A stretch of DNA of 64,000 nt, taken from Cycas panzhihuaensis. Lineage: Eukaryota > Plantae > Cycadophyta. Position numbers and translations under genes: made by a program. Below the pieces are notes generated by a model. It did no database searches. It was not told where the DNA came from and saw only the letters and a program-made list of their open reading frames with translations. The stretch spans positions 86,745,741-86,809,740 of the forward strand of contig CM041465.1 in the NCBI GenBank assembly GCA_023213395.1. Reading direction: 5' to 3'. Positions 5,903 to 58,300 of the stretch are shown here, in pieces; position 1 is the stretch's first letter; each line of letters begins with the position of its first letter.

Positions 5903-6410
5903 ATGGGTAATTCGTTTGGATGCTTTACTTATGGGGAACACCCGGTCTCTATTGTGAGAGATTGGGATTTGGTTAACACTCACACATTATTGGATTTCAA
6001 TACTTGTTTAGTAAAGTATTCGACCTTTGGTGGGCTTACTTTGCCTCTTCATTTCACAGTTGCTAAATGGCACAATGAGATTGTGTGCTTGTTGCTCGAG
6101 CATGTAGCCGATGTGAATTCTATGAATCATCGTGGCTAGATAAATTGCTATAAACTTGTTGATATGGACACTGGGAGGTCATGCAAACTCTTCTTCTGTT
6201 GAAAGAAAATGACATATGAGCAGATTACCTCAGTGGTAGGACAACCTTATATTTTGCAGTAGTAAATGATCATACAAGATGCATCATACTTGTGGTTGCA
6301 AACTTTGTACCTAGTGTCCCTTATTAATTGAGTCTGACTCTAGCTTTTGACAATAAGAAGTTTACAACATAGCGATGTCACCTCGATGTAAAAGTTAGAA
6401 TATGACAGGC
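5903..6410 (+). pseudogene. XBAT33: Processed pseudogene (5' part) of ankyrin-repeat RING E3 ligase, XBAT33/XBOS33-like
   Basis: MGNSFGC..GE..VS..RD.D......[36 protein letters not shown], then after a stop/frameshift [36 protein letters not shown]; closely follows the XBAT33 N-terminus; continuous with no introns; stops and frameshift present. Confidence 0.88.
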
Positions 6411-6909
6411 CACCTAGTTACGATTTTTTTTCAATGGTATAGGGTCTAGCCCATGGAGAAAATGGTAATGAGACCAAGTTGTCCTGTTCTAATTTTTACA
6501 ATGGAATGATTGTGTTCTATTGTAAAAAATTGAATGGGATAGGGACACAATGGGCCAAAGTAAAAGTGGCTAAAAAAAGGGCCAATCACCAAAAGTTGAT
6601 CAATAATAGTGTAAAAAAATGGTACAATAGTATAAAAAAGGAATTGAAAGTGCTCATGAAAGCGCTCAAGGGTGTCTCTGGATATGGGGGACCCAAGTGA
6701 ACAAGCAATAAATGCCATTGACCATGGTTAGGATTGTCACAAGCTAATAAAAATAGGTGCATGCATCATCACACCACAAGCAAGATCAAGCAGCATATAC
6801 AAGCACATAATCATGAAAATAAATAGTAAAGCTTTAAACAAAAGCAATAATGCATACCTAACTTACCTGTATGATCGATGATTGTTGGATTGCCAGATGG
6901 TGGGAAGCA
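6410..6909 (-). repeat. Partial 3' LTR of element C
   Basis: Begins TGCTTCCCACCATCTGG directly after PPT CCAAGGGGTAAA (6910-6921); aligns with ~17720-18188. Confidence 0.75.
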
Positions 6910-7079
6910 TTTACCCCTTGGTAGCATGACCTCCCTAGATATATGTTGTGGGATGGTGAATGTTATCAACAATGCTCGTGAATATATGCATGCATATTGC
7001 TTGGCAAAGGGAATGACAAATGCATGTGAAAGCGATTTAGAATCCTAATCTCAACAACAAACTCGAGAACCATCCTGTG

Positions 7080-7480
7080 AGAGATGACGCTTTAAGATAT
7101 GGGCCACTAATTGGCCGACCTCGATATTTTGTTCTCATGGAACATGGTGAACTATAACAGATAAGAACTGAGCCAAAAGGGATCTTGCCAAGTTGGCAAG
7201 GGAACATAATTAGGGATAACGAACCTGATAAACTTGTGTGAGCTGACAAATGAATAGTTGCAAGTCAGAAACCAAGACAATAGGACCAAAATGAATGCAA
7301 AGTGCGTTAGTTAGGGCTTTAATGATAACAGTATACTTGGTTACATTATTAGTAACCGTCGAAATGTATATTCTGACACTAATCAAAACACAATCGCTTG
7401 GTCACAAATGTTCCAAGCGATAGTAGATGGGTTGGAGCTACCATGACTTCCTCCATATGTGTAGAGTAGTAACAACATGG
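7080..7480 (-). pseudogene. Additional (archaeal-type) RNase H, aRH, of element C
   Basis: LLYTYGGSHGSSNPSTIAWNICD..TNNVTKYTVIIKALTNAL..VSDLQLFICQLTQVYQV..VHHVP*EQNIEVGQLV; collinear with aRH of A and B. Confidence 0.75.
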
Positions 7481-7639: not shown

Positions 7640-8518
7640 TGCTCTCTCATGGACAAACCATCTACTACACCAACTTATGCCACAAAACCCTCATCCTCAA
7701 TCATGATCACTTCATCACGTGGCAGAGAGAATAATAGCCTACCTGACATATCACTGGCTTTACCATGGCAATCATGCCTACTTCAAAAGCCCCATTCTCA
7801 ATCTCACATACAACACTTACATGTATATTGGCAAGATATGCATATAATAGTCTAAAAATGAATAAAACAACACCAAACCTTTGTGGAATTCAAAATAACT
7901 GCAATACCTACGCTTTTGGTTAGATTTCAATGCTCATGCCCCAACATACTCAAGGTACCTTGCAAAACCATGGTTCGAAAGCATCACAACCTACAATAAA
8001 TCTTCACCTGATAAACAAACTACGCTCTTTATTTAGTCACAAACAGACATATGTAAATAAGTTCTAAATCAAAACATTAAGATGTGGACACACTCATTAT
8101 CTTACAACCTAACTGGGGTCAAATCAGGTTCTAATAAACCTAACTCTAATACCACTTATTAGAAATATATAATAGGTCCAAGACTATATAACATCACTAC
8201 TATAAAATATAAAGAAATATGCATGCCTAAGATCAAGACTATGAATTATTGCGCTATATAAGTGAATAAATAAAGAATAAATATGGACAAACACATAACA
8301 CAATATGCTTGTAAGAAATAATCGCTTCCAAATTATATTATGATAAACTAATACATATTTATAACACACCACTCAATGGCTATCTAATCCCATATTAGGA
8401 ACCACTTGGTTAACCAATGACCTACAACATTAAGAAGTGTATGCACTATGACCCCTTAGTACACATCAAATGGATAATTACAATAATTTAATAATCATAG
8501 GTTTGACATTACCCAACA
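7640..8518 (-). mobile_element. Truncated LTR element nested in C (LTR 8157-8518, PBS-Met 8142-8154)
   Basis: LTR starts TGTTGGGT; followed by TGGTATTAGAGTT (tRNAiMet PBS-like); left boundary approximate. Confidence 0.6.
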
Positions 8519-8604
8519 AAATTAAGTAAATTCCAAATTGTAGTTTAGTTTTGAGTATATTTATAAGTGATTTGATATCTGACTAATGTTATGGTGATTT
8601 GCAG

Positions 8605-10230
8605 GTGATATTGGTCGTGACTAACAGGGAGTATATCGGACCAACCATGTTTGGCCTGACCACAGGAATAGGAGCCACAATGTAGTAAATTCTGAGGCAT
8701 TACGAATTATATCAGTTGGTCAACTCACAGCAATATTGTCATACCAACTATTGTTGGTGGATGTCGTGTCCCATTAGGACCAAGCAAGGCAAGTATTTCA
8801 CTTGCCTCAAATAGGTGATGGAGATATTCAACGAATATTAGGAGTATCGTATATAAGGGCAATGTCAGAGCTGGGAGCCTTACCCAACAATGATGAGGTG
8901 TATACAACAGTAGCCATATATTTCTATGACAACAAAGAGTGGGATTAGCAAGGGATTAACCTTCCTACACACTTAAGATCACAGACAAGTTCCGCAAGTG
9001 TGGAAGCTCATAGTATGTGCAATCTTATTTTGAGTAATGATGTGACACATTTACTCAATATTCCTTGGAGGTTGGTTTGATTGCGTGTCACGATGTAAGG
9101 CTAGGAAAAGGTTTAACTAAGCCAGCTTGATTCACTATAATTTGACATGGCAACTAGATAAGATCAGGGACATTGGCTTAAGGGGGCTCCCATACTACTC
9201 CCTTATGTAGCATTGATTTTTTAATTACTACATGGGAGGGCATCCCCACACAAGGCCACAACCTATAATAATCGATGACCCATTGATCCATAGGTGGCTT
9301 GCTAGTTTTAGGGGCATGGGACCAGTTAGGGTATTTATGCTAGCTCGTTCGATGATCTCACAGTATAAAGGTTTATACGGGACTCTTACACAAGGGTCTA
9401 CTAGGACTTAGATGAAGAAAAACTTGCAAATGTTGAATGTAGGGGCATAGTAATGCCCCCAGAATAGATCGAGGCAACAAAGGAGGTTCCAATAGTTGTA
9501 GAGGGATTTGAACCAGAGTAAGGGCTAAAGAAGTGTCTAATTGGAGACGTGGAAGGAGAGAAGTAAGCAACAGTAGGAGGTGTTGATGACGCCAAGGGTA
9601 TACTCTCAACCTACACCCTTCCTTTCACATACATGATAAAGTTTAGCTTTATATTTATATTTATATTTATATTTATGTTGGTTTCACATGATATTCAGAT
9701 TGATCCTTTTCTTTATATTATGGTGCAGAGTTGGAGTGCTTCACAGGTGTCTTCATGAAGACAGTGTCAGACTTATTGCTACCTCAAGTGTACAAGGAGG
9801 GCCAACTTTTCATAAAGGGCACAGGACTGTCGACACTAGCCTGCCCACACATAGGAATATTCACACCCCTTATGAGGGCCCTCGAGATGTGGGGGGTAAA
9901 TAGGATGCCCATTGCCTAGCTTCAAGGCCAAGTAACCCCAATGGCAAAGCTGATATAAGTGATACCCAAGGTAAAGGTACAAATAGTTACACTACAAACC
10001 TGAATATAGAACATGACAAACAACAGAGACTAGTTGATCAAGGAGGGGGATTGAGTGTGTGTCTCTTAACAGTGAATGGTTGAGATTATAGCAACTAGAT
10101 CATTGCGTACACATACACCATCACAGAGGACGACTGAGAGACAACAGAGACGAGACAAGGTGAACCAAGTAAGCCTATTGAGATGATCTTGCATGGAGGG
10201 TAAAGGATCCCCCGAGGAAGGGGAATCCTA
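8605..10230 (+). pseudogene. Antisense plant mobile domain (PMD) gene of element C
   Basis: LLVDVVSH*DQARQVFHLPQIGDGDIQRILG matches the PMD motif; acceptor TTGCAG|GTG at 8604; second exon after GTGCAG at 9728. Confidence 0.7.
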
Positions 10231-10909: not shown

Positions 10910-11010
10910 ACAAATGTAGTATTTGTTAAGGAATTGGCCATTTCGAGGGTGTGCTACTTGGGTTGGTTGCCATGTAGGCCAACCACCCTCCCACATTGTG
11001 ACGGGCATTA
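10910..11010 (-). pseudogene. Integrase C-terminal tail remnant in element C
   Basis: MWEG..AHPRNGQFLNKYY is similar to WVGP..AINGRFLKKFYV at the end of element A integrase. Confidence 0.55.
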
Positions 11011-11699
11011 AAAGTTGTTAGGATGTTATCATGTGTCGTAATTATGCAAGTGACAATGGTCGTGGCGCAATGCCACTACCTACTATTAAAGTAAGAAGTG
11101 TTATGGTTAGGGACTTAGCAATGTTGAGTAATTGGACAAGGCTCCAATTGTTTTATAAATAATTCTGCTCCAACGCTGATTTATCGCCAACTTGGGGGAG
11201 GGAAAGGAGTAAATCAAGGTTAGCATCATGGCCCAAATCTATGAGTTGTTGGGATTATTCACGATAGTCATCCTAGTGTGGAAGCCCAATGGACTAAAAA
11301 AGATCTGTCGATGGTGAATGATGAGTATTAAAAATGTCCCATATAGAGTTAAAGGGAGGATCTCCGAAAATAAGCTCCATCACCTGAAATAGAACCAATA
11401 TTAGGGTTAAGTATGAGAAAGGGTCAAGGCAAGGAGTCTTGTGCAAGGGTGGGGGGAGTGGTATCCCCAACATGATTAAATATATTTATGGTTTGCACAA
11501 GGGCATCCTCATCACCAAACTCATGATCATTAAGGATACCCACATATGTATAGTGCCACACACCTATAGGTACAAAGTGAATCATGTCTAACTTGAGAAG
11601 AGATGGGCCATGGTCAAACTTGGGTCTTTCATCCTAGAACGAAGAACCTAATTCTTCCTTGTTCTTCTCATTATTAAAACTGGCTTGTATGGGTCATTG

Positions 11700-12290
11700 G
11701 GGGTCAGATTGGCTCCACTCATGGTATCGTATGGTATGAATCTTTCCATTATAAACAAATTTGAGTTGTCCCCAAGGATTGGAACAAATAGCCTCCATTT
11801 GGTTAAACCATGGCGTCCCTAGAAGGAGGTTTTAATCCACGTCAATATCCAAGACAATAATCTCAGTGGGGACAATTTTATCCTTAAGGGCAAGGGCAAT
11901 GATGACCATCCCTAAGTGGGCCTTGGAGAATCCATTATATCCTCAATAAAAGGCTCAAGGGCATTAATGCCCAACTCTTTGAGCATGCGGGCAAGCAGGG
12001 CATTAATAGATGGTCTGTTATAAAAAACCATCCTTTATAGGACATAATTAGGAGTTTCAATACTAATAAAGAAGGGGAAGAGGAGTTGGCACTCTGTCTT
12101 CTCCGAGGAAGGGGCTTCCTCTGGGTCAATTCACAAAAGAGGTTTAGTTGATTGTTTAACAAAAATAGAACTGACCTCACAAGGTCCCAACGCATTCAAG
12201 AGTAGCTGTCATTGATCAGGGCAACTTTATAAAACGCCCATCATGGACATGCTAGTAGAGACAGACTGAAGCTCCTCGATAATGGACAAG
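11700..12290 (-). pseudogene. Aspartic protease of element C
   Basis: LSIIEELQSV..QLLLNAL pre-protease motif and DKIVPTEIIVLDIDVD*NLLLGTPWFNQMEAICSNPWGQLKFVYNG; collinear with element A protease. Confidence 0.75.
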
Positions 12291-13029
12291 GGCTTCCCTT
12301 TACAAGTAGGTTAGGGGAGCACCCTCCTCATGCTGTAACGACTAAGATGAATAAGGATAACCTTGGGGAACATAGGGATCGCGATAGGTTGAGGGTTAAG
12401 AGAGGAAGTGTCAGCTTCCCAAGCTGCGTGAACTCAGGTAACAGTGGGTGGGCAATAATACGCTTACCCTTTGCATTATAATGTTCAACAACTTCTCCCA
12501 ATTCAGTGGATTAGGCCTTTGCCAAAGGCTAATATTGCTCTTATTATGCAACACTTGGTTGAAAAGTGGCAATGTGGGTCTATAGGGATTTGCCCTTAAC
12601 CTTTGATGCCCAAGACTTAGAACCACCATGATGTTGAGGGAAGGGATCCTTATAGATTTGTTGATCAAGGTTGGGCCTCAATGTTAGAGGTGTAGAAGGC
12701 TCTTAAAGAGGTAGAAGCTTTGGGTGTTGAGTCCAATGTTGATCGTCATCATGGGCATAACTCTAATGGACCCAACTCCACTTCTTCACAACACGGGGAG
12801 CATCTCCCTTGTTACCCTTAAGCTGAGAAGGTTGTTGGGTAGTTTGATGAATAGGTCAATGGTTTTGTTGACTTTGAAGTTACAAATTACACCTTTCAGT
12901 GGCTTAAGTTGTAGCTTGAGGTCCCAAATTGTTCTTTCGAATGAGTGAATGACAAAAGTAAGGGAATTTATAATCTTATCGATGGTACCAACATGGAGTT
13001 TAATCCTTTAGGTTGGGTAGAAGCTTCAC

Positions 13030-13560
13030 GTCTCTAGGTTGGTTTGGTGAACTTCTTGATTATCATCTGGATCTTAATAGACTCAGAGGCAAGGTATTTA
13101 CTTACCACACTCTCATATGTGGTGGCACCCATTTTGAGCACTTCCACGTGTACCTTAGGACGAAGGGCATTAATAAAAATATCTCGCTTCAGCTCTTTAG
13201 ACAATGTGGCCTTAGAAGAATAAAGGAGGTCATGGAAGTGCCTAACAAGATCCTTGTTAAGCTCATTAGGACCTTGTTTAAGGGAGAGGAGGGTCTTAGC
13301 CCCCACTCTCGAAAGGTCTAGACACGTCAAAATAGCTGACAAAAGTGTCAACTAGTTGTTGGAAGGTGTGAATAGAATGTGGGGGTTGACAATAAAACCA
13401 TTTAAGAGTATCCCTATGGACGGAGTGCAAGAATAACTTCATCATAATATCATAGGGTAGGTAATCCATACATGCCATGGTAAAAGCTTTAACATGGTTC
13501 GTAGGATCTTGTTGAGTTGTCCCAACAACTTAGGAACTTGAGGTGGATGGGGTGACAAGT
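13030..13560 (-). pseudogene. Retrotransposon gag (Retrotrans_gag) of element C
   Basis: MMKLFLHSVHRDTLKWFYCQPPHSIHTFQQLVDTFVSYF..LLSLKQGPNE..DLVRHF..IFINALRP (ORFs 13296-13478, 13034-13351). Confidence 0.85.
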
Positions 13561-15114
13561 TGGTCCTGAGCACGTCGAGGGACAATGAACTACTCATATA
13601 GCCAACGTACAAGCATGTTGTAGGTTGGGCCCATGATTCCATAGGTCAAAGTTATAATTAATAAGGACATTGGCCTTCGATAGCACCATAGAGGTGAGGC
13701 CCCTGATGGTAGGCTTGATATTGTCGAACGGGTTGAAGGATTGCCCCCAACTAGAGGTGGGTTGGCTGCATGAGGTATATTTCTTTTACACCTAGGGTTC
13801 CTAGGGAAATAGGTGTAGGTAAGAGGGGTTTGATCAACCTAAGTAGGTGTTTACCATGCATTAATAGTGGTTTGGGCTTGGTGAGGCATTCCCCTTTACA
13901 CTGGAGTTTCTTAATAGAAAATCATGTTCAAAGGTGTAGGAGAAGGATAAACATAGGGATGTTGAAGTGGGATTTGACCATATAGGCCCCCAAATGGAAG
14001 GGCTATCCCATATGGATGAAGCAAATTCGCATTGTATATGTGATAAGGTTGAGGCCTGACATACCCCCACTTTTTGGATATGTAGCCAACTAAGACATAT
14101 GGGGTAGGAGTACACCCCACCACAGTTTGAGTAGATTGTGGGATAAGACTTGCCATACCCCCAACAATAAATTGTTGGGGTATTGAATGAGGTGGAATAA
14201 TAGGATTTGCCCAAACCCCAAAAGGTTGGGTGATGGATGAGTGAAGTTCCAAAGTCGATAGGACAGGTGGGGTAAAATATAAGGGTAGGATCAATCTCAC
14301 ATTAGTTAAGGTAGGGGTTGATGTTGCAACTATAGCTTGAGGGGACGACATAGCGACTTGCATGGCTACCTCCTGTTGGGATTGAGATACAAATGGAGGT
14401 ACACTTGGACCGGCACTTATGACATTAAACATATGAGTGATCCAAGAAAAGTTAGGAGTAGAAGATGTTGAACCCAAAGAAAGCCCATTAAAGCATGCCT
14501 TCAATGAGGTAATGATCTTAAAGGACTTCTTCAAGGTATGAATAAGTTAGAGATATGATATGGCTACGCGTCATAGATCCTACTAGGATGTGTAGGCCAA
14601 TGGCTCAGATGAAGACATAATAAACTGCACTTGGGTGGTTCCAATAATATGTGTAGGGGATCCTACCAGATTTTGATAAATTGAATCAAGCTTGCGTGGT
14701 GGGTAAGATCTATATACTCCAATAGGGTGGTGTGGAGGAAAGGCATAAGCATCTTTGACTTTTTAGGACCACTCAGGTGTTTGGGTAGCAAAGGGGTCAA
14801 TGACTCAAAGTTGATGGGATTGCTCCACCATCGAGGTATACTTGATGGGTGAAGAGCCAAGGGATAAGGATCCAAGGGAGGAAGGCCTTGTAATCTTCGA
14901 GAATATCAAGGCATACAAGGGACTACCCTCAAAAGTAAGAGGCAAGATCAAACAAAGGGGTGCACTTGTCACCTTAGGAAGCAAACAAGATGGCAAGCAA
15001 TACTTACAAACTCAATAAGGCCGCACCAAATGAGCCACCCTAAAGTGAAGATTGAAGTGTAATATACGAGAGAAGGCTAATGGTATACCACCAACCTCCC
15101 AACTGGCAAGTTCC

Positions 15115-15128
15115 TAATAAGGTCACCA
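15115..15128 (-). other. Primer binding site of element C (TGGTGACC.., tRNA-Arg-like)
   Basis: Follows LTR end ..CAGGTTACA after a 5-nt gap; TGGCGAC-type PBS is typical of Tat/Ogre. Confidence 0.65.
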
Positions 15129-15133
15129 GAAAT

Positions 15134-18100
15134 TGTAACCTGTGAGAGAGGATGACCTCTCATACAACTCTACAAAATATCCAAGGTAAAGGAGATTCTT
15201 GCCCAATAAGGGAGAGAGCAAACTCTCTCGTAGACACTGTGTACTACTTGGACACAATCACAAAGGCAAAAACAATAGTCTAGGTCGAACAAGGGGTCAA
15301 AAGGAGAAATCAAAACACACGGTTATAATGTGGTTATATGCTTATTTGATTTCAATGCAAACAATACTCAACCTAAATTAAATGTACACCTAAGAGCTTG
15401 CAAGTTTGGAGACTCACACTAGATGCAACCCCTGTACCCTCTTTAGTCTCACTAACAAACACACCTATAAGATGCAAGTATCTTGTTTTACTTTTTTTTC
15501 TCGGTTCCCTAATTAGGATTATATGAACAAAGAGAAAAGAAAGGGACAAGCAAACTAACGTATGCACAAACAAACATAAAAGCAAGCGCTCCCTCTTTTG
15601 TTAATCTTTTCATTTTCTTTTGCTTCTATTTTTTAAGAAATAAGGGGGGGCAAAAGAAGTGTTCCACTCTCCTCCCTCTCACTTGTTCTTCTCTTTCTTT
15701 TCAAAATAGAAGTAGCAAAGAAAAACAGGGGTAAGAAATAAAGAAATTTGGAGAAGCACTTTCCTTTATTTGTTTCGTCTCTTTGAGGTAAACAAAGGAA
15801 GGTAAGAGAAATAGCCTTGTTCTTTCTGTTTTCTTGTTTTTATAATAAAGTGGATTGAAGTATAAAAGGGCCTTCTAGGCCTAAAATTGTCTTTGCTAAT
15901 TCTTTTTTAAATTAAAGATAAAATAAAAACAAATGAAAAGAAAGGGGCAAAGAGGGGTACTTTGAAATACGCTTACAACCTCAATGAAGAGTTGCCCTTC
16001 CCTCCAATGTTTCTTTCTTATAAAGCCAACTTGGTGGATGAGTTATCAAACGCCATACAAGAATGCAAAGAGAAGGAAAAAAACATCTATAGAAAATTTG
16101 ACAACATTTCGGTCTACCGAATGGACTTATGACAAAAAATAATTTCTTATTATTCTATTAATGCAGACTTTGCTAGTTTGAATGTGCCGATAGACAAAGT
16201 TGTATAAACGCAATTCAAGTAGTAGACATTATCATTGTTTATGCAACATCGACAAGAGGACCACCACCTGCCTCGTGTGCTAGTGCACACAAAGGGGACT
16301 TAGCACCGAATAACACTTATAAAAGTAGCACTTTATCTTTGTTGCCCAATGCCAACATGTTAACAAACAAGTATTTAATAAGAGAGTATTTTCCTTTCCC
16401 TTTTTTTCTCAGTTTTTTAATTTTTATTTACTTCTGTAACATGGCATAGAGTAAATATTCATGCACAAAGTCAATTAGAGGTGCTTATTGGCATAATGAA
16501 AATGCAAGAAATTGATAAAAAGGGGATTAGAAAGGTAATATCTTGAGGAACAATGTCAAAAGTTTTTGCAATCTTCCCTTCTCCATACACAACTCTCGAC
16601 CTCAATGAAATAACAAATATGCACTCAAAAGATTTTAAGTGAATTCCGACAACATAACAACTAGTCCAATCGCTTTCTGATGATTTTTTTAAAAAAAATC
16701 TTAAAAGACTTCAAATTGCTAGAAAACATGAGTTGAGATGAAGTATATCTTGAAGTATCTCATGGGGAATATTAAGTAAAATTTTCTCTACCCTATAAGC
16801 ACCAAACAATTTTAAAAAATAGAGAGAGAGAGAGAGGGAGAGAAAAGAAGAGGAGAAAATGAAGTTCCAAGTTTTATGTTCCCACTACCCACAAATAAAA
16901 GCCTTGAAAAGCTCCTTTTACCTGCCAGGTTAACTACAATAAAGCATCTATATCTATCTATCTATCTATCTATCTATAACAAGGAAAAAAAATAAATTAT
17001 GAATAATATTTAAATAAACTAGTTTATCAACAAAAATAAATGGAAAATAAAAGGATGAACCTCAAAAATAGCAAACATGTCACCAATCAAAGGGCCCTAA
17101 AACACCAACCAAACACCCCAAAAGAGCTCTTAAGCACATCCAAGGTGGAAAATTGGTATGCAAACATGTAGCAAAGAGGAAAATGTAATAAGAACAATAA
17201 TTAATTAAATGAGCCAAATGACTATGAAAATGCATACATCTCATGAACATCAATCACGATGTGAAAGAGATTCTAAAAAACTTTTGGCAACAATTCAACA
17301 ACATAACAATGCAAAAATTTTCCTCCCCTTTCTCGTGGAAAGTGAAAGGTATGAATAAATTTGTCAAGGGGTTGCCTTAGTGGGTTAAGGGCTCATGGTT
17401 TCTATGAAACCATAAATGTACATCTAGTCCATGGAATTGAATGTGTGTAAAATCCAATGTGGTAAAGCCAACAATTGAAATACAAAACCATGGATTTGGG
17501 AGTGGTTTTTAAAAATTATGTAAAGCTTAGGACCTGCAACAATAAATTTTGGATACCTCCTATTATAGGTGCAATTAATTTGAATGGCTCAAAATGGAAG
17601 AAATGGCCTTTATTTTGAAGCGAATGCTACCTGCGATTTTGCAATGGGTTGATGTTGCCCCATTGTAAAAAATAAAATCAAAGAGACCATACCATTGTGA
17701 TTTTTTTAATAGTATAAGGTCTACCCCGTTAAGAAAATAACATGAAGACAGAGCCATAATGTGACAATTTTTACAATGGGACGAGTGTGTTCCACTGTAA
17801 AAAAAAATAGAATGGGGCAGAGAACACAATAGGACAGAGCAAAAGTGGCTAAAAAAGGCGTCAATGACCAATAATTAATTAACATTAATGAAAAAAAGGG
17901 AAAAATAGTCCCAAAAAGGGGGTGGAAGTGCTCATGAAAGTACTTAAAAGGTTCTCTGAATATAAGGGACCCAAGTGAACAAGCAATAAATGCCACTGAG
18001 CATAATTAGGATCATCATAAAGTAATAAAAGTGAGCACACTTATCATCACATCACAAGTAAGATCAAGTAGCATTTACAAGCATATAATCATAAAAATAA

Positions 18101-18188
18101 ATAATCAAATTATAAATAAAAGCAATGAATGCATACTTAACTCACTTGTATGATCGATGAGTGTTGAATTCCTAGATGGTAGGAAATT
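15134..18188 (-). repeat. 5' LTR of element C (~3 kb)
   Basis: Ends ..GGTTACA before the PBS; its start aligns with the start of the 3' LTR at 6909. Confidence 0.7.
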
Positions 18189-18189
18189 G

Positions 18190-26473: not shown

Positions 26474-26492
26474 ATGATCATTAACCCCAACA

Positions 26493-38540: not shown

Positions 38541-38553
38541 GCCACAACAACCC

Positions 38554-38564
38554 ACTACTTAAAC
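38554..38564 (-). promoter_or_regulatory. Possible TATA-like element of the pri-MIR482 transcript
   Basis: TTTAAGTAG just upstream of hairpin 1; candidate first-exon donor AAG|GTAGGA at ~38201. Confidence 0.3.
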
Positions 38565-46832: not shown

Positions 46833-47270
46833 TTAAGGAGGGCCATCAAGGAGGGGGAGGCGACACTCGAGGATGAGGTCAACGAGGTCGTCTACCTTAG
46901 CATTACGGTCTCGGGGGATATGATGGATATCAATAGAAGGGAAATATAATAAAAGAGACCTAGCGGTCGAGGCGAGGGCCCTTAAGTGTGGCAATGTACC
47001 TGGTAGACCTAGGTGAGGTGAGACACCACAACCTAAGAGTCGCAAAGGAGGATGATGAGTCCGAGGTGGAAGCAAAGCGTATCCATGAGGGCTGCAATAA
47101 CAACTATGTATTCAGCTTTGTTATTAGTGGCTTCAGGAAGGAAGACCCCGAAATATATGTACTCATATCCAGAGGAGTCGGAGAGGATCCACGTAGTGAT
47201 AGAAGAGCCTGGGTTGCCACGGCTTCCACCGTCGATAAAGATGAGAAAAGAGAAAACAACGACATGGTTG
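46833..47270 (-). pseudogene. aRH of element A
   Basis: IFIDGGSRGNPG..EATNNKAEY..LCDS*VVVSHL..IHHIPRDRNAKVDDLV (RNase HI D-E-D-D pattern). Confidence 0.88.
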
Positions 47271-48473
47271 ACGAGTAAAGAAAGGGACCAAAAAGAGGAG
47301 AAATAATTGTGAGATACTCATATGACTATGAATAAAGGTCGTAAAGGGTAGGAGGACCCAAGGAAGAGATTACCTAGGGATGAGGAGACCTACCTGGTAG
47401 ACGGGAGGAGATGTTAGTGAAAAAGGCTCCTTTGGGGTCCCAAAGGTTGCTAAATAAAGCAAAGCATGGTCCTGGGTGAGGGAGGCACTTTTCTTGGGAA
47501 CCCCAAAGGCTCAAATGGGTAGCGAAACTGGGTTCAAGATGATAGAATGAGCCAAATGAGTATAAACATGGGCATGTTTAGGACTGGTACAAAAATTGAG
47601 GTAGAAGGAGCCTCGCAAGAAACTGGAGGGGTCATCATAAATATTCCAAAGAGGTGGAAGTAGGAGGCCACGAAGGTGAAAGGGGGGATGGACCTAAAAG
47701 GCAAAGGTGGCATAGGGAAAGAGATGGTCACAAGGGCTATCATGGCAAGGTAAAAGGAGGAAGTACCTGTCGGGGCCCTAATCTATATAAGGAAAATTTG
47801 GTGAAAATAGAATTCATTTTCACAGGCTCACAATCAATCTGGAGCCCTTTTTCTTATGCAGTAAAGTGCCACCTAACTTCAGAGGCATGTAGAGAGAGAT
47901 TAGACCGTTGGATTAGATTGAGGAGACAGTTGATGGGATCAGAGCGATAAGATGGTCGTAGTGAAACCAAATCTAGTGAGTGGATCATCCCATACCCACT
48001 CCATTTCGTCACTTAAATTTAATGTGTTTTAATACTTTTTTAGAGTGATCCTTGGCCCCTTAAGGGCAAATTAGGACCTTCTAGAGCCTGATTTGGTCCC
48101 AGAGAGGGGGAGGACTAGGGTATTAGGTTGCCCTGGTTCTAGTGGGCCCGAGCAAGGTCTACTTAGACAAATTTTTTTTTTTTTTTTGGGCATTTCCCCC
48201 CCTTGCATGGGGGGTATGACTAGCCCTGCGACAAAATTCATGGTACCATAGAGTTTGCCATGGGGCTGCTAAGAGCACGCTGAAATCTCAATAGGGACCT
48301 AGTCAAACTCTATGGTACCGTAGAGTTTGATGTAGGATAGAGACAACCAAGCAGAAAAAAGAAGGAAAGGGGGCCAGAACAGCATCAAACTTAGCCCAAA
48401 GAGAGGGAGAAATAACCTAAGGGTAGGTAGGTAAATGCAGAGGTATTTTGACTGATTGTTGGGTGTTTTGCAG

Positions 48474-50420
48474 GCAGTTATCATGGTAGAAAACCACGAA
48501 AATATAGGGATGGCGATGATCAACTTTATTGAGATGATGCCTTAGGGAGATAGGCAGACTTTAGGGAGATGTGGATTATTAAAGATCATCAAGATGCCAC
48601 AGTATGCCTCGAACTAGCATCTCCTAGTTGTCATTGTCACCCATTAGGATTGTAGGTGGTATGTATTCCACCTCCTCCAAGTAGTGGACATCACTATCAC
48701 ACTAGGGGACATTCAGAGTATCCTGGGCATGCCAACGGGAGGAGCACTAGCATTACTAGGGGCATTGCCTAGCAATGATGTTGTACATAGGGAGGTATCC
48801 ATATATTTCACGGGCTAGGACGAGTGGGAGAGGCGTAGGATACCAGTTCAGACCATGGTTATATCACAGATTCCTCAGGTGAGGAAGTTGATTACATTGG
48901 GTATTCTATTCTAGATTTCCCAGAAACAGAACTACAGGGATATACGCAGTGGATGGATGGAGACAGTTAAGAGGTGTGAGGTCAGGGAGAGACTGGACTA
49001 GGCTACTCCAATAGCAACGAACATGGTTGCCCAACTATATGCTATCAAAGTGACAAGGAAAGGAAGATTCTCCTACAGTATGTTGATGCAGTGTTGGTTC
49101 TTTAATCACTTTGAGGCGGTAGCACCGCAAGAAGGACCACACCTCATCTTGGAATGGGCTCCCATAGTACATAGGTGGCAAACTCAGTTTAGGGGAATCG
49201 AGGACCAGGCTCACATCAGGCACTCAATGGAGGTGACATCACTAGACCTTTTTACCATGGTGGACTATACGGTAGATCCATATAGAGGGGTAAGGTGGGG
49301 TAGTGATGACGAGGTAGGAAGTGCCCCTGGAGACGGCGATGACGATGATGGTGGTGACAGAGGCGATGGGGCAGGCCCATCGGGAGTAGTAGGTGATGAG
49401 GCAGGTCCATCAGGGACCGTAGGAGGTGAGGCATGGCTCTCAAGAGTTGCAGGAGGAGAGGCAAGTCCATCAGGAGTTGTAAGGAGAGGTAGGCCACCTC
49501 ACACACTAGTGTAGAGACTAAGGGTGGTAGGCAAAGCTTTGGCAGTGGCAGCGGCATTAGTGATAAAGGGAGGAGGAGACATTCTGACAGGCTAGGCAAT
49601 AGGCGAGGTGGTAACCAAGGAGGAGGGGGTACCAACAGCCAAGGGAGGTCCCAAGGAGGAGATAATCGCCAAAACTGAGGAGTCGATTGTCCTAGGAGGT
49701 GAGACACTACCCTTTCTCATCACCCTACGACTATCAGGCATTTAGATAGTTTGCTTTGATTTAGTCTTGAGGTTTTGATATGCATATGGATATGTTGACT
49801 GATGCGTGATATGTTTGGCTTGGTAGGAGTAGCAGGGATGGCAAGGCTTATTAAGGTGATAGTCCGAGAGGTATTCCCCCAGGTCTACACGAAGGGGCAA
49901 CCTCCCATCCAGGTTGGAGAGGAACCACAATCGGTAGGGGCACATACCATGACATTCGCCTCACTAACTAGGGCTAGAGACATATGGGTAACAGAGTCCC
50001 AGGAGCACCAGGCAAGGATGGAACAGCTATAGGGAGAGTTGGACAGGACCCACAAGCAGAGAGACACCTTATGAGGTCGTGTCCAGGTAGTAGAGGCTCA
50101 GGGTAGAGGAGCAGATGGAGATGCAGAGGGCTATATTTGGATAGCCATGCTCGAGGAGCGACTCTGAGGAATAGAGGAGAGGCTCTAATGGGTCGAGGGA
50201 GAGAGGGATTGTGTCCAAGGGCGATACAATTAGTTGGTAGACTAGGTGGCATCAAGGTCATCGCAGAGCAGGACCCAGACATAGATGATAGTGGCGACCC
50301 TAAGGAGGCCTCAGGATGAGGGGATCGAGGCAGGGAGCTCCCAGCGGCGCAGGAGGAGCCTAAGAGGCATGTGATCTCTTGGGGAGAGATCATAGTGACC
50401 AGGAGATAACACTCCATGAG
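48474..50420 (+). pseudogene. Antisense spliced PMD gene of element A
   Basis: LLVVIVTH*DCRWYVFHL..ITITLGDIQSILGMP..LMQCWFFNHF; GPSG repeats; intron 49699-49826; coiled-coil-like next exon. Confidence 0.8.
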
Positions 50421-51188
50421 TAGAGGAGCGCCAGAGAGTAGGGTAGGATTAGTTTTGATTGGGAAAGCATCATACCTCTAGGGAGTCACCATATGTTACC
50501 ACATGATTGTACTCCTCCCTATAAGGATTCTAGCTTCCCATGAATGATGTCATGTATGATATATATGATATGATTCTTTATGTATATAGTGAGGGGCCAT
50601 TGGCATCCCATTTGATATATGATGATGCACTTTGTTGTATATTTTGTTTATATGTTTGTATGTATATAGATATAAGTGCACAAGTATGTGAAGGGTTATA
50701 TATGATGATGGTTTTGGCTTGTTGTTATATGGTTTTTGTTATTAGATCATATAGGTGATGCCTAGGCTTTTTTTCATGCAGGGCCATACTCATAGTGGGC
50801 ACACATGACCACCATGAGTGTAGGTGATAGGCACATATGAGGCTAAGAGATGGGGAGTCATACATGTCCATCAAAGGAGCATAGCGGGATATGCAAAAGA
50901 AGCATTGGCGAGAGAAAGTACAGGTACTCAAGTATGCAGTCCTAGTTGGGGTATGTTTTCAAACTTGGGAGTTGCACGAAACCATACACCCAACAAGAAA
51001 GAAGAGTTTCCCTTAGGAGGGAAGCACAAGGTATTACAAAAGAGGATAGAGAGATGAGAGAGCCACCCTAAACAAAAATTCCACCCATGGTTTGGGGGAA
51101 TAAAAATGCATTTAGAGTGGTAGTTTAGGCTCATTTCAGAGCAAGGAAAAAGAGGTGGTATGGCTAACCTATACAGGGGTAGAGGTAA

Positions 51189-54100
51189 TCACACGTAGAA
51201 TTTTTTCAGGAATCTTCCATTGATGGCTTTTGCAAATTTAAGGCCTTCCAAGGTTGCAATCCTGTAAGCACTGTTATGGAGGTCCTTGAGAACGACAAAG
51301 GGTCCAACCCACTTAGGTCCAAACTTAGACAAATGATCATGGAGATATTCTAGCTTGAGGACATGGTCTCTAGGATGCAAAGGACAAGGGCGAAGCCATT
51401 TGTCATATGTTCTTTGCACCCTAGCCTTAGAGGCTAGATTCACTTGGTATGCGATCGAGCGTTTCTCATCAAGGGCTTCAAGGTCTAAGAGATGAGCCTG
51501 ATGGAGAGACTCGTCATTGACAAGACCCCGAATGGAGACCTATAAAGAAGGGATCTCAACTTCAAGTGGGAGGACAACCTTTGTTCCATACACAAGGGAA
51601 AAAAGAGTCATCCCTATAGTTGTGCAGATGGATGTGCGATACGCCCATAAGGTAGAAGAGAGTTAAAGATGCCAATCCCTTTAGGATTAGGTAACAATTT
51701 TCTTTAAAATATTTATAAGGGTTTTGTTAAATGACTTTACTTAGCCATTGGCCTAAGGGTAATAAGGAGAGGAGAATTTGTGAGAAATCTTAAATTTCTC
51801 ACAAAGTTCATCTTTATTGTCTATGATCAAGACATCGGGGACCCCAAACCAACAAATGGTGTGCTAGTATATGAAGGTGGCTATCATCTTGCTAGAAGTG
51901 GAAGATAGAGGGACCACTTCTACCCATTTAGTAAAGTATTCTATTGCAGTTAAGATGAACTTATGCTGCGATGAGGAAGGGGGAGTTATGGCCCTAATGA
52001 GGTCTAGTCCCCATTGTGAGAAGGGTCAGGAAGAGATGATGGGATGTAAATCCTTAGAAGTCAAGTGGGTGATGTCGGCATTCTTTTGATACCGATGACA
52101 CCGCAGGGCATAAGCATAGGCATCCTTGAAAAGGGACGACCAATAATACCCCATACAAAGGATCCTTTGGGCCATGGATTGGCCCCAAAAATGACCCCTG
52201 CAAATTCCATGATGGCATTTGCAAAGTATTTGGCTCGCTTCATCGGGGTTGACACAGCGGAGAAGGATCCCATCAAAGGACCTCTTGTACAAAACTTCTC
52301 CCATAAGGAAATATTGTCTAACAGTCGCTTGAATACATGACCTAACCTTGATGCTTACTTCGGGACAATATTACTGCTTAATGAGGTATCACACAATGTC
52401 CCCATACCACTTGCTATCAGTGAGTGGATGAGGGGAGGAATTCTGAATAGCCAAGATGGGATCGTCGAGCAAGGAATCATCGATAGGAGTGTTAGAAAGG
52501 TTTGGGATAGGGGTATCGGTAAGTTATTCGGCAATTACCATCCATTTTTTTGATTTCCTGTTGACAATTTAGAGATCAAATTACTGAAGGAGGATGACCC
52601 ACTTGCTAGTTCTACTTGTCAGGTTAGATCAGGTTAATAAGTACCTCAAGGGATCATACTGCATGATCACCCGAGTAGTATTTATAAGTAAGTAGTGCAT
52701 GAACTTCTTAGTAGTGTATACCAAGGAGAGGCATTCCTTCTCAGTGGGAAGAATAGTTAAGTTCGACAGCCATGAGGGTGTGATTGATAAAGTAAATGGC
52801 CCTTTCAGTTCCTGAGTCATCCTCTGGGGCTAGCATGGCACCCAAAGATTCATTGGTAACTAAAGTATATAAGATGAAAGGCCTGTTAAAGAGAGGAGGC
52901 ATCAAAGTTGGGGCAGAATCAAGGGCTTCCTTGAGCTCCTCGAAGGCTTGTTGGGCCTTTGCAGACTAAATAAATGAGGCCCCTTTCTTTAACATGTTGG
53001 TAAGGGGCTTCACATTTATGATAAAATTCACCAAGAAATGCCTAAGGAAACCTAACCTACCCAAGAACGACTTGATTTATCATTGGGTTCTAGGAGGTGG
53101 CATGTCAAGGATGACCCTGACTTTATCGGGATCGATTTGAATACCTTGTTTTGAAATAAGGAATCCAAGGAGTTTGCCAACTGTCATAAGAAATACACAT
53201 TTGAGGGGGTTTAGATTTACGTGATGCTTGTGGTATCGTGTGAAGATGGCCCACAAATCGATAGGATGGTGGGCCCTAATGCATGAGAGGCCCATCATAT
53301 CATTTATAAAAACCTCTAAGGTTTTGTTGATAAGGTCATGAAAAACAAATTACATCATCCTTTAATAAGTGGCACCTGCATTCTAAAGCCCAAAGGGCAT
53401 CACTTTATAAGTGAAGGTACCTCAAGGTATAGTGAAGGCCATCTTATGACAGTCTTCAGGGGAGAGTTGTATTTGGTTATATTTTTAGAAGCCGTCCATC
53501 AAGGACATAACTTCAAAACCAACAGTTCGATGGATGATTTGATCGATAAAGGGGAGAGGAAAATTATCCTTAGGACATGCATTATTGATATCATGAAAAT
53601 CAATGCATATCCTAATTGTCCTGTTCTTTTTGGCAATGGGAATAATATCCGATACCCACTTGGGGTAGTTGATGGAAGTAATCAATCCTGCGTCTAGGAG
53701 TTTCTCAACTTCCATCTTGATGGCAGCTAAAAGTTTTGGATGAAGAGAGTGTTGCTTCTGCCACATAGGGCGAGCACCCAGAATAGTGGTGAGATTGTGG
53801 GTGATGATAGAAGGGCCTATCCCCTTCATATCAAAGTAGTCCCATGTGAAAACATCACAGAATTCCTAAAGTAGAAGGGTGTACTCCTTCATTTCATCAG
53901 GAGAACATTCTACTCCCACCTTTATAACTTTGTTGGGGACGAGGACGATGTCCCTAGTTGCCCCCATGCACATGGCATTCCCCTCCTCAAAGTGAAAGGG
54001 GGCTCGTTCAACAGGAGGGTGCGAAGGAGGAATTGGGTTCAGGTAGGCAAGAGGTGACCCAATGGCTAAGATCTTCTAGTGACCAAGCCTATGGTGACTA

Positions 54101-55330
54101 GGAGAGAAATTGGGCATGAAGCTCGCCAAATGCTCAAGCAAAGCCTCATCATTCTCAAAGTAGTCTACCCCATAGATAACCATACTTTGAGAAGACGAGG
54201 GGTGAGAGGTTGAAGGGACGATAAGCCGTAGTGATCGACCCACCACTCAATGTACTCGAGGAACTCTTCAGAAGAGTAAAAAAGAGACTCCTCATGATGG
54301 GTATCGAGAGGGTGCTCCACCCCATTGTTAGAGGGAGGTGATAGGGTGGAAGAAAAGATGGTAGGGGGAGATGCATAATAGGCAAGAGTAAGAACATATG
54401 ACCTAAGAGGAAAATGGGTCTCCTCAAAAGAAGGTATTTCAGGTGGAGGCCTAGAACAGAGAGAGCTTTCCCCATTAGTGTTTAGGAAGGAGATGGGATG
54501 AGGAAGATCCTCATCCTTGCCGTCAGACTCAACATCACTAAAAATAGTGAGATATCAGTAGCTCCCCACACCAATAGGGGCCAAGCAGATGAGATTTGAG
54601 GAAGAAGGGAAAGGACCCTCTTTTAGGCTGGATGAGCCAGGAGTATCGATTGAGCAAGCAAAAGCGTGGGCGGATGGGATCTTATCGCCCTTTGCCTTGT
54701 TGCAAGCTGCTTGACGAGGTTGACGAGATTGCTTGGTGGGAGGAGGCTCTCTAGAGACAACCTTTATTCACCCCTCATGGATGAATTTAAGTTGTCCCCA
54801 ATGGGATAAGCACATGACACCCATTTGGTCGATCCATGGGCATCCTAACAAAAGGTTATAGTCGATGTCAACATTGAGAACTATAATGTCAGTGAGGACA
54901 ATTTTATCCTTGAGAGTGAGTGGAATAGACACCGATCCTAAGGGTGTCTTTTCACTACCGCCGTAGCCTTGACATCACCATGGGACAGGCTTGAGGGCTA
55001 AAATGCCAAGATCTTGCATGATGCACAAGGGCATGGCATTAACATAAGAACCATTATCTATAATAGCCCTTTATAGAGTGTAGTCAGGTGTGTTAATTGT
55101 TATGGTAAAAGGATAGTGCCATTATTGTTTCCTTTCACCGGATGAGGTAAGATCTTTGGGATCAAAGGAGATGACAGGTCCATGACTTGGAGTGACATCC
55201 AAGGCATGAATGGATGCATTAACCAACCTTAAAGCTTCCAAAAGAAGGGTGCATTATTTAGGGTAGCTTCTCAAGATGTTGGAGCTGCGTCTGCGGGATG
55301 GTCACTATACTTGATAGGGATTGAGGTGGT
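51189..55330 (-). pseudogene. pol of element A: protease (~54760-55330), RT (~52990-53830), RNase H (~52500-52990), integrase (51189-~52340)
   Basis: AIIDNGS; WVSDIIPIAKKN..RICIDFHDINNACPKDNFPLPFID; LNPLKCVF..GKLLGF; TEKECLSLV; LYKRSFDGILLRC..HHGIC.GH..GYYW; KFGPKWVGPF..INGRFLKKFYV. Confidence 0.93.
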
Positions 55331-58300
55331 CAACAACTGAAGCTGGGGGGTATGAATGAAGACCTATAAGCAAAAGGGAACACCACACATGGTGTCCGTG
55401 CATTGAAGCGTGAGTTCAGGACCTGTGAATGGTGCCTAGCTACCTCGAAGTAGCTTTTAAGTCTGAGAGGGAAGACACACGCAGGGGTATCCTGGATGGT
55501 CTCAAAGAGGAAGGTCCTCCTACCTTTTGATGGCCGTAAGGGAAGAGGAGGAATCCTCAATAAAGAGGTTCCTATGACAAAGGAACACAAGATGAAAGGG
55601 TATAGGCAAAGGGCCTAGGATGAATGTAGATGGGCTTCCCTAGGCTAATTGGTCTAAGCAAATCTAACCAAGGGAAGGAGTAAAGAAAAAGGGCTAAAAG
55701 CTACTCTCTCTTTCTCTCTCTTTTTCATTCAACAATAAAAGGGCAAGAGAAAAAAGAACAAGCGTCTTGTATGCATTTAAGCAAGCAACTGAATGAAGTG
55801 CAACTATGGGTACTTTCAAGTTAGATTAGAGAAAGGGGAGGAATGGAGTCCTTACTATGCCCTCTTCCTATGAGGAACAAGCATATAACATACTTATGCA
55901 AAATAAATGTAAGTAGTTAATTTATTATCTTTTTTGCTTTTACGTGATTTATTAAACAAATGCAATAGATTTTAGATAAGAACAAAAAAAGGGGAAAGGG
56001 CGGATAGAGAGGGATGATGCGTACTTAGGAAGTGTAGCGATTGATGGAGAGCCTCACTTGTGTGCAACGTACACCCTCTCACCAATAGTTGGTGCGTGAC
56101 CAAGGTTGGTGTGGAAAATAGGGGCTTCCTTACCTTCCCCTTATAAAAGACAAAGCAAAATGGAAAAGCAAGGAAAGCAAGTAAACGTACCAAGAAGCAA
56201 GCAAAGAGAAAGAGAAAAGAAGGGTAAAGGCTTACCCGAAGTCAAACGTCCTTCCTCTTCACAGATGTTGCTTCAAACCTGCATCCACAAGAGTCTTTCC
56301 CTTCCAAGAAGGGGCTGCAAGAAACTATATATGCAAATATATAATATGAATGCTAAAATGTTATATTTTAGGTTATAGTAACTACTACTGAAAATAATTC
56401 TACTTTCTTCAAAGTAAAACCATGCATACCAAGTAAGAAGGGAAAGGGTAGCCTCAGGAAGGCAAAACCCTCAGCTAAAGGTTCTTCACATAGCTTCAAA
56501 GTACAACAAGGTAAGGGTTATGTGACAGTCTATGGATAACCAATAGGCATGGGGTTGAATGATGTAGGATGTAAGAGAGAAGCTTAGGTAACAGAGTCGC
56601 TCTGGACAGTGAACCGCCATGCAAGTCTCACCGAAGATCTGAATGGATATCAGGCAAGGTTAGGGGCATAGAGAAGGCCCAAAAGAAGGGCGTGCGAGCC
56701 TGGAATCATCGTAGCAAGGGTTACATATGCTGATATCTAGCGCAGGCTAGGATTCCACCCACTCCTAGTTAACTCAAGGAAAGCATGGACGTAAGAGAGG
56801 AAGGATGGGAAGGGGTTTGCCTTTGGGGAGTAGGTCTATCTAAGATAGATCCCACCTTACTTCCTTTGCCTAACCCTTGTGAGCCCTCTCCCGCAACTTT
56901 CTTAAAGAAAACCAGTAGAGAAATAGGATGGAAACCAAGGGATACAGAGCCAAACACAAGGAAAGACAATCCTTACTACAACCAAAGGGCAAAAGAGAAG
57001 GAAAATACACTTTGAAATAAGTTCTAATGGAATAAATACATATTAAATCATGAAAATAAGATAAAGGGTACCTACTGGGCTAAGTTTAGGGAAGATTTAC
57101 CCCTGCAACCAATGAAGGAGAGTAGGTCCTGGAGGGTGTTTCCCAAAGAGGAGTTGTAGAGGACACTTGCTGGGTGGAGTTGAGGAAGAACCAAAGAGAT
57201 CTTGCTTGGAAGTGCTTGGAGGAGGGTCTCCCACCATGAAACAGAGCTATTGTAGGCGGATCTTAAGCTAGAACAGTAGAAAACATAGAGTTGTAGGTGC
57301 ACCTGTGGAGGAGAGGAGGAAGAAAGCAGAAATACAGCAGTAAAATGTGACGTTTGAGAGCCAAGAGATGTGAAATGATAAACTTTTTGGGATTTATACT
57401 CATCTCAACCCTAATCGAGCGATTAGGGTGCAAATAGGGTCGAGTTGGTCCCTTGTCCACATGGTAATTCCGTGAAAACAATAAGAATTGCCATGGCAGA
57501 TTAAAAAACAAAGTGCAACAGTTGCACCGTAGTAAACTTTGTGGTATCGCTTAGTTTACAGCGGTGCGAGACTAGAATGCCAAAATGGTAATGGTTCAGG
57601 TTCTGGGAGCCCTAAAAGAGGTGTGGTAGGCCAAGGAGGGGGCTAGCCCTCCTGTCCAAGTGGCTGGGGATAGTCCAGGTGATGTGAGAACTAGACCAAA
57701 TGAGGCATCAGGGGTTAGAATTCCCAGAAAGGTCGTGATAGGGAAATAAGATTAGGGTATGAATGGGTCATACAAGTCAAGTGAGGCTTGAGGTGATGTG
57801 GAGGTGGCACGGAGGGTCGTAAGGTGCCATGGGGATGCCTACCTTATGGAAAGATAGGTCCCGCGGGTCATCATAGGCTAACAATATGATAAGCAGCATG
57901 ATCAAGCAATGGATATAAGGCGATCATACAAATGAAGTAATCAATTGTGCAATGAGGCAATGCTTCTATCTACCTTTCCAAAGAAACAATAAAAGTGAAA
58001 AGGGAGAAGCATAATTGTGCTTACCTAAGTCAACTTGTCTATATCCATTCCTGGTAGCTAGGAAACACTACCCCCTTGGCAGCAGAGCCTCGCCACTCAG
58101 AAGCATGGTGCGATGGCAAATGCTGGCAACAAACTGTCAGTAGCACATATATATATATATATATCGATCATGATCACAATAAAAGTCAAGGGTATCGATG
58201 AGTGTCATGGTGGAATGTATGGATATAAGGATAAGGGTGGAGACAACATAGGGGCTGCCTATGTGCCACCTGAAAATCGATTGGAAGCTATGACGGATGA

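What the first reader, a model, noticed from the sequence alone, without database searches (positions are those of the whole stretch)
6410..56562. Possible two-component Tat retrotransposon system: Gag+PR-only element (C) and Gag-less PR-RT-RH-INT element (A) with shared cis-signals and accessory genes
Seen: C runs PBS-gag-PR and then, within ~0.7 kb, reaches a vestigial integrase tail (PRNGQFLNKYY) with no RT/RH/INT core. A has a complete pol, but its pre-protease motif (..SVVDHL..LRSYPK*CTLLLEAL) is preceded by a pyrimidine tract/AG (CTTTTGCTTATAG ~55368) and >=1.2 kb of non-coding leader instead of gag. A separate, diverged copy of that same leader lies at 1-1165, so it looks like a family trait rather than a one-off deletion. 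Both types keep the same LTR start (TG(T/C)TTC), PPT (CCAAGGGG(G)TA), antisense PMD and aRH. Known: non-autonomous LTR elements borrow proteins in trans. Inference: two mutually dependent lineages, one supplying capsid and the other enzymes. Caveat: B is inserted upstream in A, so gag of A could lie outside the window behind a long intron/spacer, which would itself be unusual.
Basis: partly seen in the sequence, partly recalled or inferred. Interest (0 to 1): 0.8.

Follow-up and report, generated by a model that had tools for sequence, protein, structure and literature searches.

The report
Gag-less high-copy Tat retrotransposon family
These are decayed plant jumping genes of the Tat group: one copy has all its copying enzymes but no capsid (gag) gene, likely like most of its abundant family, which would then have borrowed capsids from relatives, while a nearby capsid-only element is not shown to be its partner.

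Summary
The anatomy is mostly real; the claimed partnership is not shown. A, B and C are old, decayed Tat elements built like gymnosperm TatIII (aRH after integrase, antisense PMD), so these accessory genes are lineage traits, not signs of pairing.

C has gag and protease but no RT, RH or integrase core. A has PR-RT-RH-INT but no gag. The LTR starting at 58067 ends at about 56603 and is followed by an Arg-type PBS-like motif and a 1.25 kb stop-rich leader. Paralogous contigs from four runs bridge that site and tile most of LTR, leader and protease. A gag-less, high-copy family that borrows Gag is therefore likely (about 0.55).

Caveats: this LTR is B-type, not the twin of A's 3' LTR, so the unit is a tandem or chimera with an unmapped junction. 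One 35-nt interval is unbridged in the listed contigs.

C is far diverged: about 60% DNA identity, a barely alignable LTR, no Arg-type PBS, and about 30-fold fewer matching contigs per kb. Complete TatIII elements are reported. Both halves have precedents (BARE-2; TR-GAG/Sabrina). A helper-free two-component system remains possible (about 0.15).

The parts
17696..18188 (-). C 5' LTR (part shared with the 3' copy; true end uncertain)
   Evidence: 78% identical to 6419-6909, ts/tv 2.3, K2P 0.27
14750..17695 (-). C AT-rich 5' region, about 3 kb, no Arg-type PBS found
12300..14750 (-). C gag region, frameshifted; capsid core 13103-13514; outer limits by eye
   Evidence: profile E 1.1e-5; tblastn P0047 E 0.02
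11457..12298 (-). C pre-protease motif, protease and start of the linker
   Evidence: score 260 against P0048
10913..10975 (-). C possible integrase-tail vestige (weak collinear hints up to about 11150)
   Evidence: peptide 42 against 23+-4, DNA not alignable
8682..9320 (+). C antisense PMD gene remnant
   Evidence: tblastx to A and B; 59% DNA identity to A; no Pfam hit
7108..7401 (-). C aRH
   Evidence: RVT_3 E 0.003; tblastn
6419..6921 (-). C PPT (6910-6921) and 3' LTR from 6909, possibly truncated
44957..46341 (-). A PPT (46330-46341) and 3' LTR from 46329 (LTR2), cut off about 170 nt short against another element
46990..47260 (-). A aRH
   Evidence: RNase_H E 4e-6
48468..50450 (+). A antisense PMD gene with a likely second, helical exon (by eye)
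   Evidence: PMD E 1.6e-6; tblastx to B
51192..55345 (-). A pol: pre-PR motif, PR, linker, RT, RH, INT; stops in about 2% of codons
55346..56588 (-). Non-coding leader in place of gag; donor-like motifs at 56235 and 56133, acceptor-like AG at 55365
   Evidence: paralog tiling
56589..56602 (-). Decayed tRNA-Arg-type PBS candidate directly after CA
   Evidence: 10 of 14 exact, 3 transitions, 1 transversion; 0.4 such CA-preceded hits expected per window (motif recalled). Nearly all paralog depth (31-60 contigs per run) differs from the window at the one transversion, towards the motif
56603..58067 (-). LTR1 (about 1465 nt): 3' LTR of B that also serves as the 5' LTR of the gag-less unit
   Evidence: 50 heterogeneous loose ends behind 58067 in X3; 61% identical to LTR2
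58068..63447 (-). B 3' half: PPT, aRH (58600-58920), antisense PMD (59733-60892), INT (62345-63447)
63448..64000 (+). D: LTR of a related subfamily inserted in B's integrase in the opposite orientation
   Evidence: alignment 74-100 against a shuffle maximum of 45
1014..1086 (+). Short segment like the end of A's leader (the only supported part of the claimed 1-1165 copy)
   Evidence: 1 of 200 shuffles reach the score

Best explanation
The unit at 58067-44957 reads LTR, likely PBS, non-coding leader, PR-RT-RH-INT, antisense PMD, aRH, PPT, LTR with no gag, and likely represents an old, high-copy gag-less TatIII-type family that would have been packaged by Gag supplied in trans. Shown: the domain content, the absence of gag between the LTR and the protease, and many paralogs along LTR, leader and PR. 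Inferred: (i) that the motif at 56602 is the PBS; (ii) that most family members share the gag-less layout; (iii) that Pol was made from a spliced RNA, because the leader has donor-like sites, there is an acceptor at 55365, and the first in-frame ATG lies downstream of the protease active site; (iv) that the Gag donor was a gag-bearing TatIII relative, complete or Gag-PR-only. C is likely a separate, more distant Gag-PR-only derivative (TR-GAG/Sabrina-like) that needed someone else's RT and INT. Nothing ties it specifically to A. The B-A tandem with one shared LTR is likely a local recombination product of two subfamilies.
For: No gag in the leader: the 19-sequence gag profile hits only C, and each sense frame has 17-23 stops. 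In those 19 relatives the capsid start lies 418-827 aa before the PR active site, while PBS to active site in A is only about 1.54 kb in all. A PBS-like motif follows CA at 56602, and Arg is the dominant TatIII primer, 64% of 39 elements. 38,258-42,221 contigs per run were laid on 54600-58200, with depth in all 30 bins. Listed paralog records at about 80-88% identity tile 55950-56838, including the LTR end and PBS. Further records and variant rows cover 55289-55699. Profile homology to pol starts at 55298 (tblastn 55301), inside the span 55289-55389 implied by the 55339 variant row, which holds 36-50 contigs per run (the span is set by the longest). A and B differ mostly at third codon positions (0.38-0.54 against 0.12-0.23 at second positions), so these enzymes evolved under selection. 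The first in-frame ATG is at 55034.
Against: LTR1 is not A's twin: 61% identity, 20% transversions and 3.6 gap openings per 100 nt, against 78%, 6.8% and 1.0 for C's pair. A junction between subfamilies must therefore lie somewhere between 56775 and the integrase. No listed record bridges 55255-55289. Loose ends sit before 55278 in X1 (5 contigs) and X2 (3). The AG microsatellite at 55701-55731 was masked and appears bridged by only 1-3 contigs in two of four runs. The SVVDHL motif is 8 residues from the conserved P against 4 in 39 of 39 relatives carrying the motif, and on its own it is not significant (27 against 21+-4). Contigs are short, so tiling is not a full-length copy, and the tool showed only 32 records out of about 162,000. 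The PBS sequence is recalled, not taken from a call. No RNA data exist for the splicing step.
Confidence: 0.55

Rival explanations
1. Gag was lost only in this copy. A deletion or recombination near 55255-55345, or at the microsatellite, joined a B-type LTR and leader to an A-type pol. The family is an ordinary complete TatIII.
For: A subfamily junction is required. PR and RT have A-like stop density, 17 of 832 against 7 of 747 in B (p 0.10; all of A against B p 0.056). There is a 12-nt register anomaly, loose ends at 55278 and an unbridged 35-nt interval. TatIII elements are described with gag.
Against: Contigs carrying the 55339 variant run from the acceptor through SVVDHL into the start of pol homology in all four runs. 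The 55278 loose ends are few and short (median 22-26 nt), and by eye they resemble an LTR segment near 57200. No gag remnant is present in the leader.
Confidence: 0.2
2. An obligate two-component system: gag-less A-type and Gag-PR-only C-type elements complement each other, and no complete helper of the same age exists.
For: Both layouts occur in one genome. C's integrase vestige, if real, is far more decayed than its PR, aRH or PMD, which suggests loss before this copy inserted. C's gag core has many paralogs (summed depth 1,270-2,040 against 3-27 in the flanks).
Against: C and A share only about 60% DNA in coding parts and little LTR. C has no Arg-type PBS. C matched about 30-fold fewer contigs per kb, 66% of them under 90% identity in X1 against 36% for the A stretch. 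C's junction and PMD bins are near single-copy depth (10-54), so a C-type family is not shown. In the wheat systems read, Gag-only partners go with a complete element.
Confidence: 0.15
3. Plain nesting: B has a 2.8 kb LTR ending at the CA near 55277 and inserted into A's pre-protease region. A's gag lies beyond the window, and the 'leader' is LTR.
For: B looks younger than A. There is a terminal-like CA at 55277 with loose ends there. A shallow profile began at 55280. The 1014-1086 look-alike fades shortly after.
Against: The PBS-like motif at 56602 would lie inside the LTR. The deeper profile and tblastn extend to 55298-55301, across 55277. The loose ends do not show the terminal base expected of an LTR end and are similar to each other between runs.
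Confidence: 0.07

Closest known systems
TatIII / Tat lineage III / Tat H-I of gymnosperms (Neumann 2019 PMC6317226; Ustyantsev 2015 PMC4408406; Prokopeva 2026 PMC13468544)
   Same: aRH downstream of INT, antisense PMD eORF in the 3' part, PR at the 5' end of pol, Arg-type PBS, size about 13 kb
   Different: A has no gag. aRH lies about 4 kb behind INT, beyond the PMD gene, as a separate ORF. No phylogenetic placement against TatIII references was possible.
BARE-2 of barley (passage in Wicker 2021 PMC9744471; Tanskanen 2007 seen as a title only)
   Same: Gag-defective, keeps the other genes, presumed to use Gag in trans
   Different: BARE-2 is Copia with a disrupted gag and a known complete helper (BARE-1). 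Here a Gypsy/Tat element lacks gag altogether and the helper is unidentified.
TR-GAG and semi-autonomous RLG_Sabrina_SA, RLG_WHAM, RLG_Quinta (PMC9744471, PMC5738225, PMC11302176, PMC13570524)
   Same: C keeps GAG and PR and lacks RT and INT
   Different: C also keeps PMD and aRH and is 11.8 kb. Those families go with a complete element (Wilma, Cereba), not with a gag-less one. A multi-copy C-type family is not shown.
Ogre (passage in Neumann 2019)
   Same: Tat clade, PMD eORF, splicing used for pol expression; best integrase hits (about 41% identity) are Ogre/Retand-type proteins with aRH
   Different: In Ogre the intron lies between GAG-PROT and RT and aRH lies between RH and INT. Here the predicted intron precedes PR.

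Membership tests
TatIII | aRH downstream of INT | tested here: met
   RVT_3 or RNase_H hits 3' of INT in A and B, and at the same position in C; none between RH and INT
TatIII | Antisense PMD eORF in the 3' part | tested here: met
   PMD E 1.6e-6 (A) and 3.7e-5 (B), under the curated cut-off; C by similarity
TatIII | PR at the 5' end of pol | tested here: met
   A: PR, linker and RT are collinear with one frameshift
TatIII | tRNA-Arg (or His) PBS | tested here: inconclusive
   Decayed match at 56602 to a recalled motif; none in C
TatIII | 5-bp target-site duplication | tested here: inconclusive
   C ends too decayed; A's 3' LTR is truncated; D's far end is outside the window
TatIII | RT/INT phylogeny inside the TatIII clade; gymnosperm host | not testable with these tools
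   No named TatIII references were retrieved and no genome is held
TatIII (autonomous member) | gag between PBS and PR | tested here: not met
   A lacks it, so it is filed as TatIII-like and non-autonomous
TR-GAG / semi-autonomous GAG-Pro elements | GAG (with PR) present, RT and INT absent | tested here: met
   C
TR-GAG / semi-autonomous GAG-Pro elements | Multi-copy family sharing the structure | tested here: inconclusive
   Junction bins at summed depth 15-54, with up to 7 contigs at listed sites
BARE-2-like gag-defective family | gag defective, pol kept, many copies | tested here: met
   (copy-level tiling by short contigs, not full-length copies)
BARE-2-like gag-defective family | Identified Gag donor sharing LTR and PBS | not testable with these tools
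   C fails on LTR and PBS similarity; other donors could not be retrieved

The most novel reading that the evidence does not exclude
A major gymnosperm Tat lineage split its genome: a very abundant gag-less Pol-only family, with Pol made from a spliced RNA, and Gag-PR-only families replicate together with no complete element, a naturally bipartite LTR retrotransposon.
Probability: 0.15. Interest if true: 0.8.

Novelty: new variant of a known kind. Interest (0 to 1): 0.5.

Why it matters
A high-copy Gypsy/Tat family with complete pol and no gag would extend the BARE-2 'life without Gag' case to clean gene loss in another superfamily. It raises a real mechanistic question: how Pol that is not fused to Gag enters the particle. 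Domain-based annotation would miscall such elements as autonomous with an 'undetected GAG'; Neumann 2019 reported 159 Ty3/gypsy elements without an identified GAG and attributed it to divergence. If complete helpers are absent, it would be a two-part retrotransposon, which my five searches of the open-access library did not find described.

Tried and rejected
No host genome is held. Scans of viral contigs (one search used a wrong frame) and metagenome contigs found no relatives, so no full-length paralog was read. A search for longer relatives of A's PR found 0 of 1,327 candidates. The near-length search gave 2 of 125, both Logan proteins starting inside PR and so uninformative about the upstream region. 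The representative search with P0048 gave 893 hits (150 listed); the close ones are short fragments. No RNA holder was listed, which is no evidence on expression. Four look-ups of earlier findings were empty. Pfam did not recognise C's gag or either PR in single-frame pieces; several pieces were in the wrong frame, and the PMD pieces were redone. A PDB search with C's capsid piece was empty. The Atlas could not read the sequence. Paper searches for the PBS motif were uninformative. Rejected: B insertion at 56562 (bridged); LTR1 as A's own twin; 1-1165 as a full leader copy; PMD and aRH as evidence of partnership; summed depth as a guide to the LTR end (no step visible). The 89-95-codon open stretch at about 55620-55340 does not match C's gag.
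Full report
SETTING. The window is a pile of old plant transposon remains. No genome is held. Twelve of 24 listed runs hold part of element C; six whole-genome runs from three coded organisms hold 33-40% of its words, so the insertion is old and shared between related organisms.

ELEMENT C. Its LTR copies (17696-18188 and 6419-6909) are 78% identical, K2P 0.27. A gag profile built from 19 relatives hits only 13514-13326 in the whole window (E 1.1e-5). The pre-PR motif is in the canonical register, followed by PR and the start of the linker. Six-frame Pfam finds only aRH, and tblastn with nine polyproteins finds no RT, RH or INT. A contig from X1 at 96.7% spans 10801-12177, so the gap is real. 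The integrase tail is borderline as a peptide (42 against 23+-4, maximum 43) and not alignable as DNA, while PR, aRH and PMD align to A or B at 59-62%. If it is a vestige, the loss predates this insertion. Paralogs at 80% or more are plentiful over gag (summed depth 1,270-2,040) and PR (270-2,360) but near single copy over the junction (15-54) and PMD (10-22). A C-type family is therefore possible but not shown. No Arg-type PBS was found in C, and its real LTR may be longer than the shared 490 nt.

ELEMENT A AND ITS 5' END. PR, RT, RH, INT, antisense PMD and aRH are present. The LTR begins at 58067, where 50 contigs of X3 run on into unrelated sequence. It aligns with A's 3' LTR down to 56775/44957. 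At 56603 a CA is followed by a decayed match to the tRNA-Arg-type PBS (motif recalled; 0.4 such hits expected per window). Nearly all paralog depth differs from the window at its one transversion, towards the motif. Arg is the main TatIII primer. The next 1.24 kb has 17-23 stops per sense frame, two donor-like sites and the acceptor-like AG at 55365, and no gag similarity. Pol homology starts at 55298.

PARALOGS OF A'S 5' END. Four runs each laid 38,258-42,221 contigs on this 3.6 kb, against 4,823-5,331 on C's 13.1 kb; only about 47% of each run was read, and depth is no copy number. Listed paralog records bridge 56563 and 56603 (records 22 and 28) and tile 55950-56838. Variant rows extend the cover to 55289-55699 and much of 55790-56020.

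RESULTS AGAINST THIS READING. A and B are different subfamilies (third-position bias), and LTR1 is B-type: 61% identical to A's 3' LTR with many gaps. The unit is therefore a tandem or chimera with a junction somewhere upstream of A's integrase. Stop density in PR and RT resembles A more than B, though not significantly. Among the rows shown, 55255-55289 is unbridged, 3-5 short loose ends lie before 55278 in two runs, and the masked microsatellite is bridged by 1-3 contigs in two runs. SVVDHL is four codons out of the register kept by 39 of 39 relatives. These points keep a private deletion at about 0.2 and a long-LTR nesting at about 0.07. The claimed leader copy at 1-1165 is supported only for 73 nt.

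MECHANISM. Inferred: the RNA starts in the LTR and is primed at the PBS. Pol would be translated after removal of a leader intron, since the first in-frame ATG (55034) lies past the protease active site; the start codon may also have decayed. The RNA and Pol would be packaged in particles made of Gag from another element. The donor is unidentified. C shares only the PPT, the first bases of the LTR and lineage-wide genes with A. It is about 60% identical in coding DNA and much less represented among paralogous contigs, so it is a poor candidate for a dedicated partner, though Gag-PR-only relatives of LTR1 type may exist.

COMPARISON WITH PRINT. Post-integrase aRH with an antisense PMD defines gymnosperm lineage III: Ustyantsev 2015 (passages), Neumann 2019 (passages and one supplementary row) and Prokopeva 2026 (abstract, sections 4 and 16, passages). 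GAG-Pro-only families in a 'cooperative complex' with a complete element are described in wheat and barley (passages of PMC9744471, PMC5738225 and PMC11302176) and in sugar beet (passages of PMC13570524). A gag-disrupted family using another's Gag is BARE-2 (passage; the original paper was seen only as a title). Five searches found no description of a gag-less Tat family or of a helper-free gag/pol pair. The library lacks most subscription papers, and Neumann's per-element file was not seen.

VERDICT. The anatomy is real; a gag-less high-copy TatIII-like family is likely; an ordinary Gag-PR-only derivative lies beside it; mutual dependence is unproven. New variant of a known kind, interest 0.5.

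Noticed in passing
window 63448-64000 (+): LTR of a third related subfamily (57-60% identical to LTR1 and LTR2) inserted into B's integrase in the opposite orientation.
   Followed up: partly
window about 46285, 58023, 6866, 18145 (-): A donor-like AG/GT(A/G)AG motif is kept within the first 50 nt or so of the LTR in A, B and C, suggesting splicing tied to the 3' aRH ORF.
   Followed up: no
window 45700-45800, 57450-57570, 48230-48330, 59520-59630, 6490-6530: Clusters of short palindromic motifs occur in the LTRs upstream of a TATA-like box in LTR1 and again upstream of the antisense PMD gene; possible shared promoter elements.
   Followed up: no
window about 7700-8560: High-copy segment inside C between aRH and PMD (summed depth up to 2,700) with a Met-type PBS-like motif at 8154; probably a nested insertion.
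   Followed up: no
window 20692-26492: Copia-type element with 82-88% identical LTRs and a Retrotran_gag_2 hit at 21058-21714.
   Followed up: partly
window 40225-42991: Small LTR pair (157 nt, 90%) 2.6 kb apart with a Met-type PBS-like motif at 42830; TRIM-like.
   Followed up: no
window 44816 (+): Met-type PBS-like motif of another element whose internal region abuts the truncated end of A's 3' LTR.
   Followed up: partly
window 29224-30985 (-): LINE-like RT fragment (RVT_1 E 8e-13 at 30494-30985).
   Followed up: no
window 23855-24325 (-) and about 6000-6300 (+): Host-gene-like fragments: leucine-rich repeat (weak Pfam hit) and an ankyrin-like stretch seen by eye only.
   Followed up: no
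window 19234-19527: 147-nt tandem duplication at 99% identity amid otherwise old sequence; recent event or assembly duplication.
   Followed up: no
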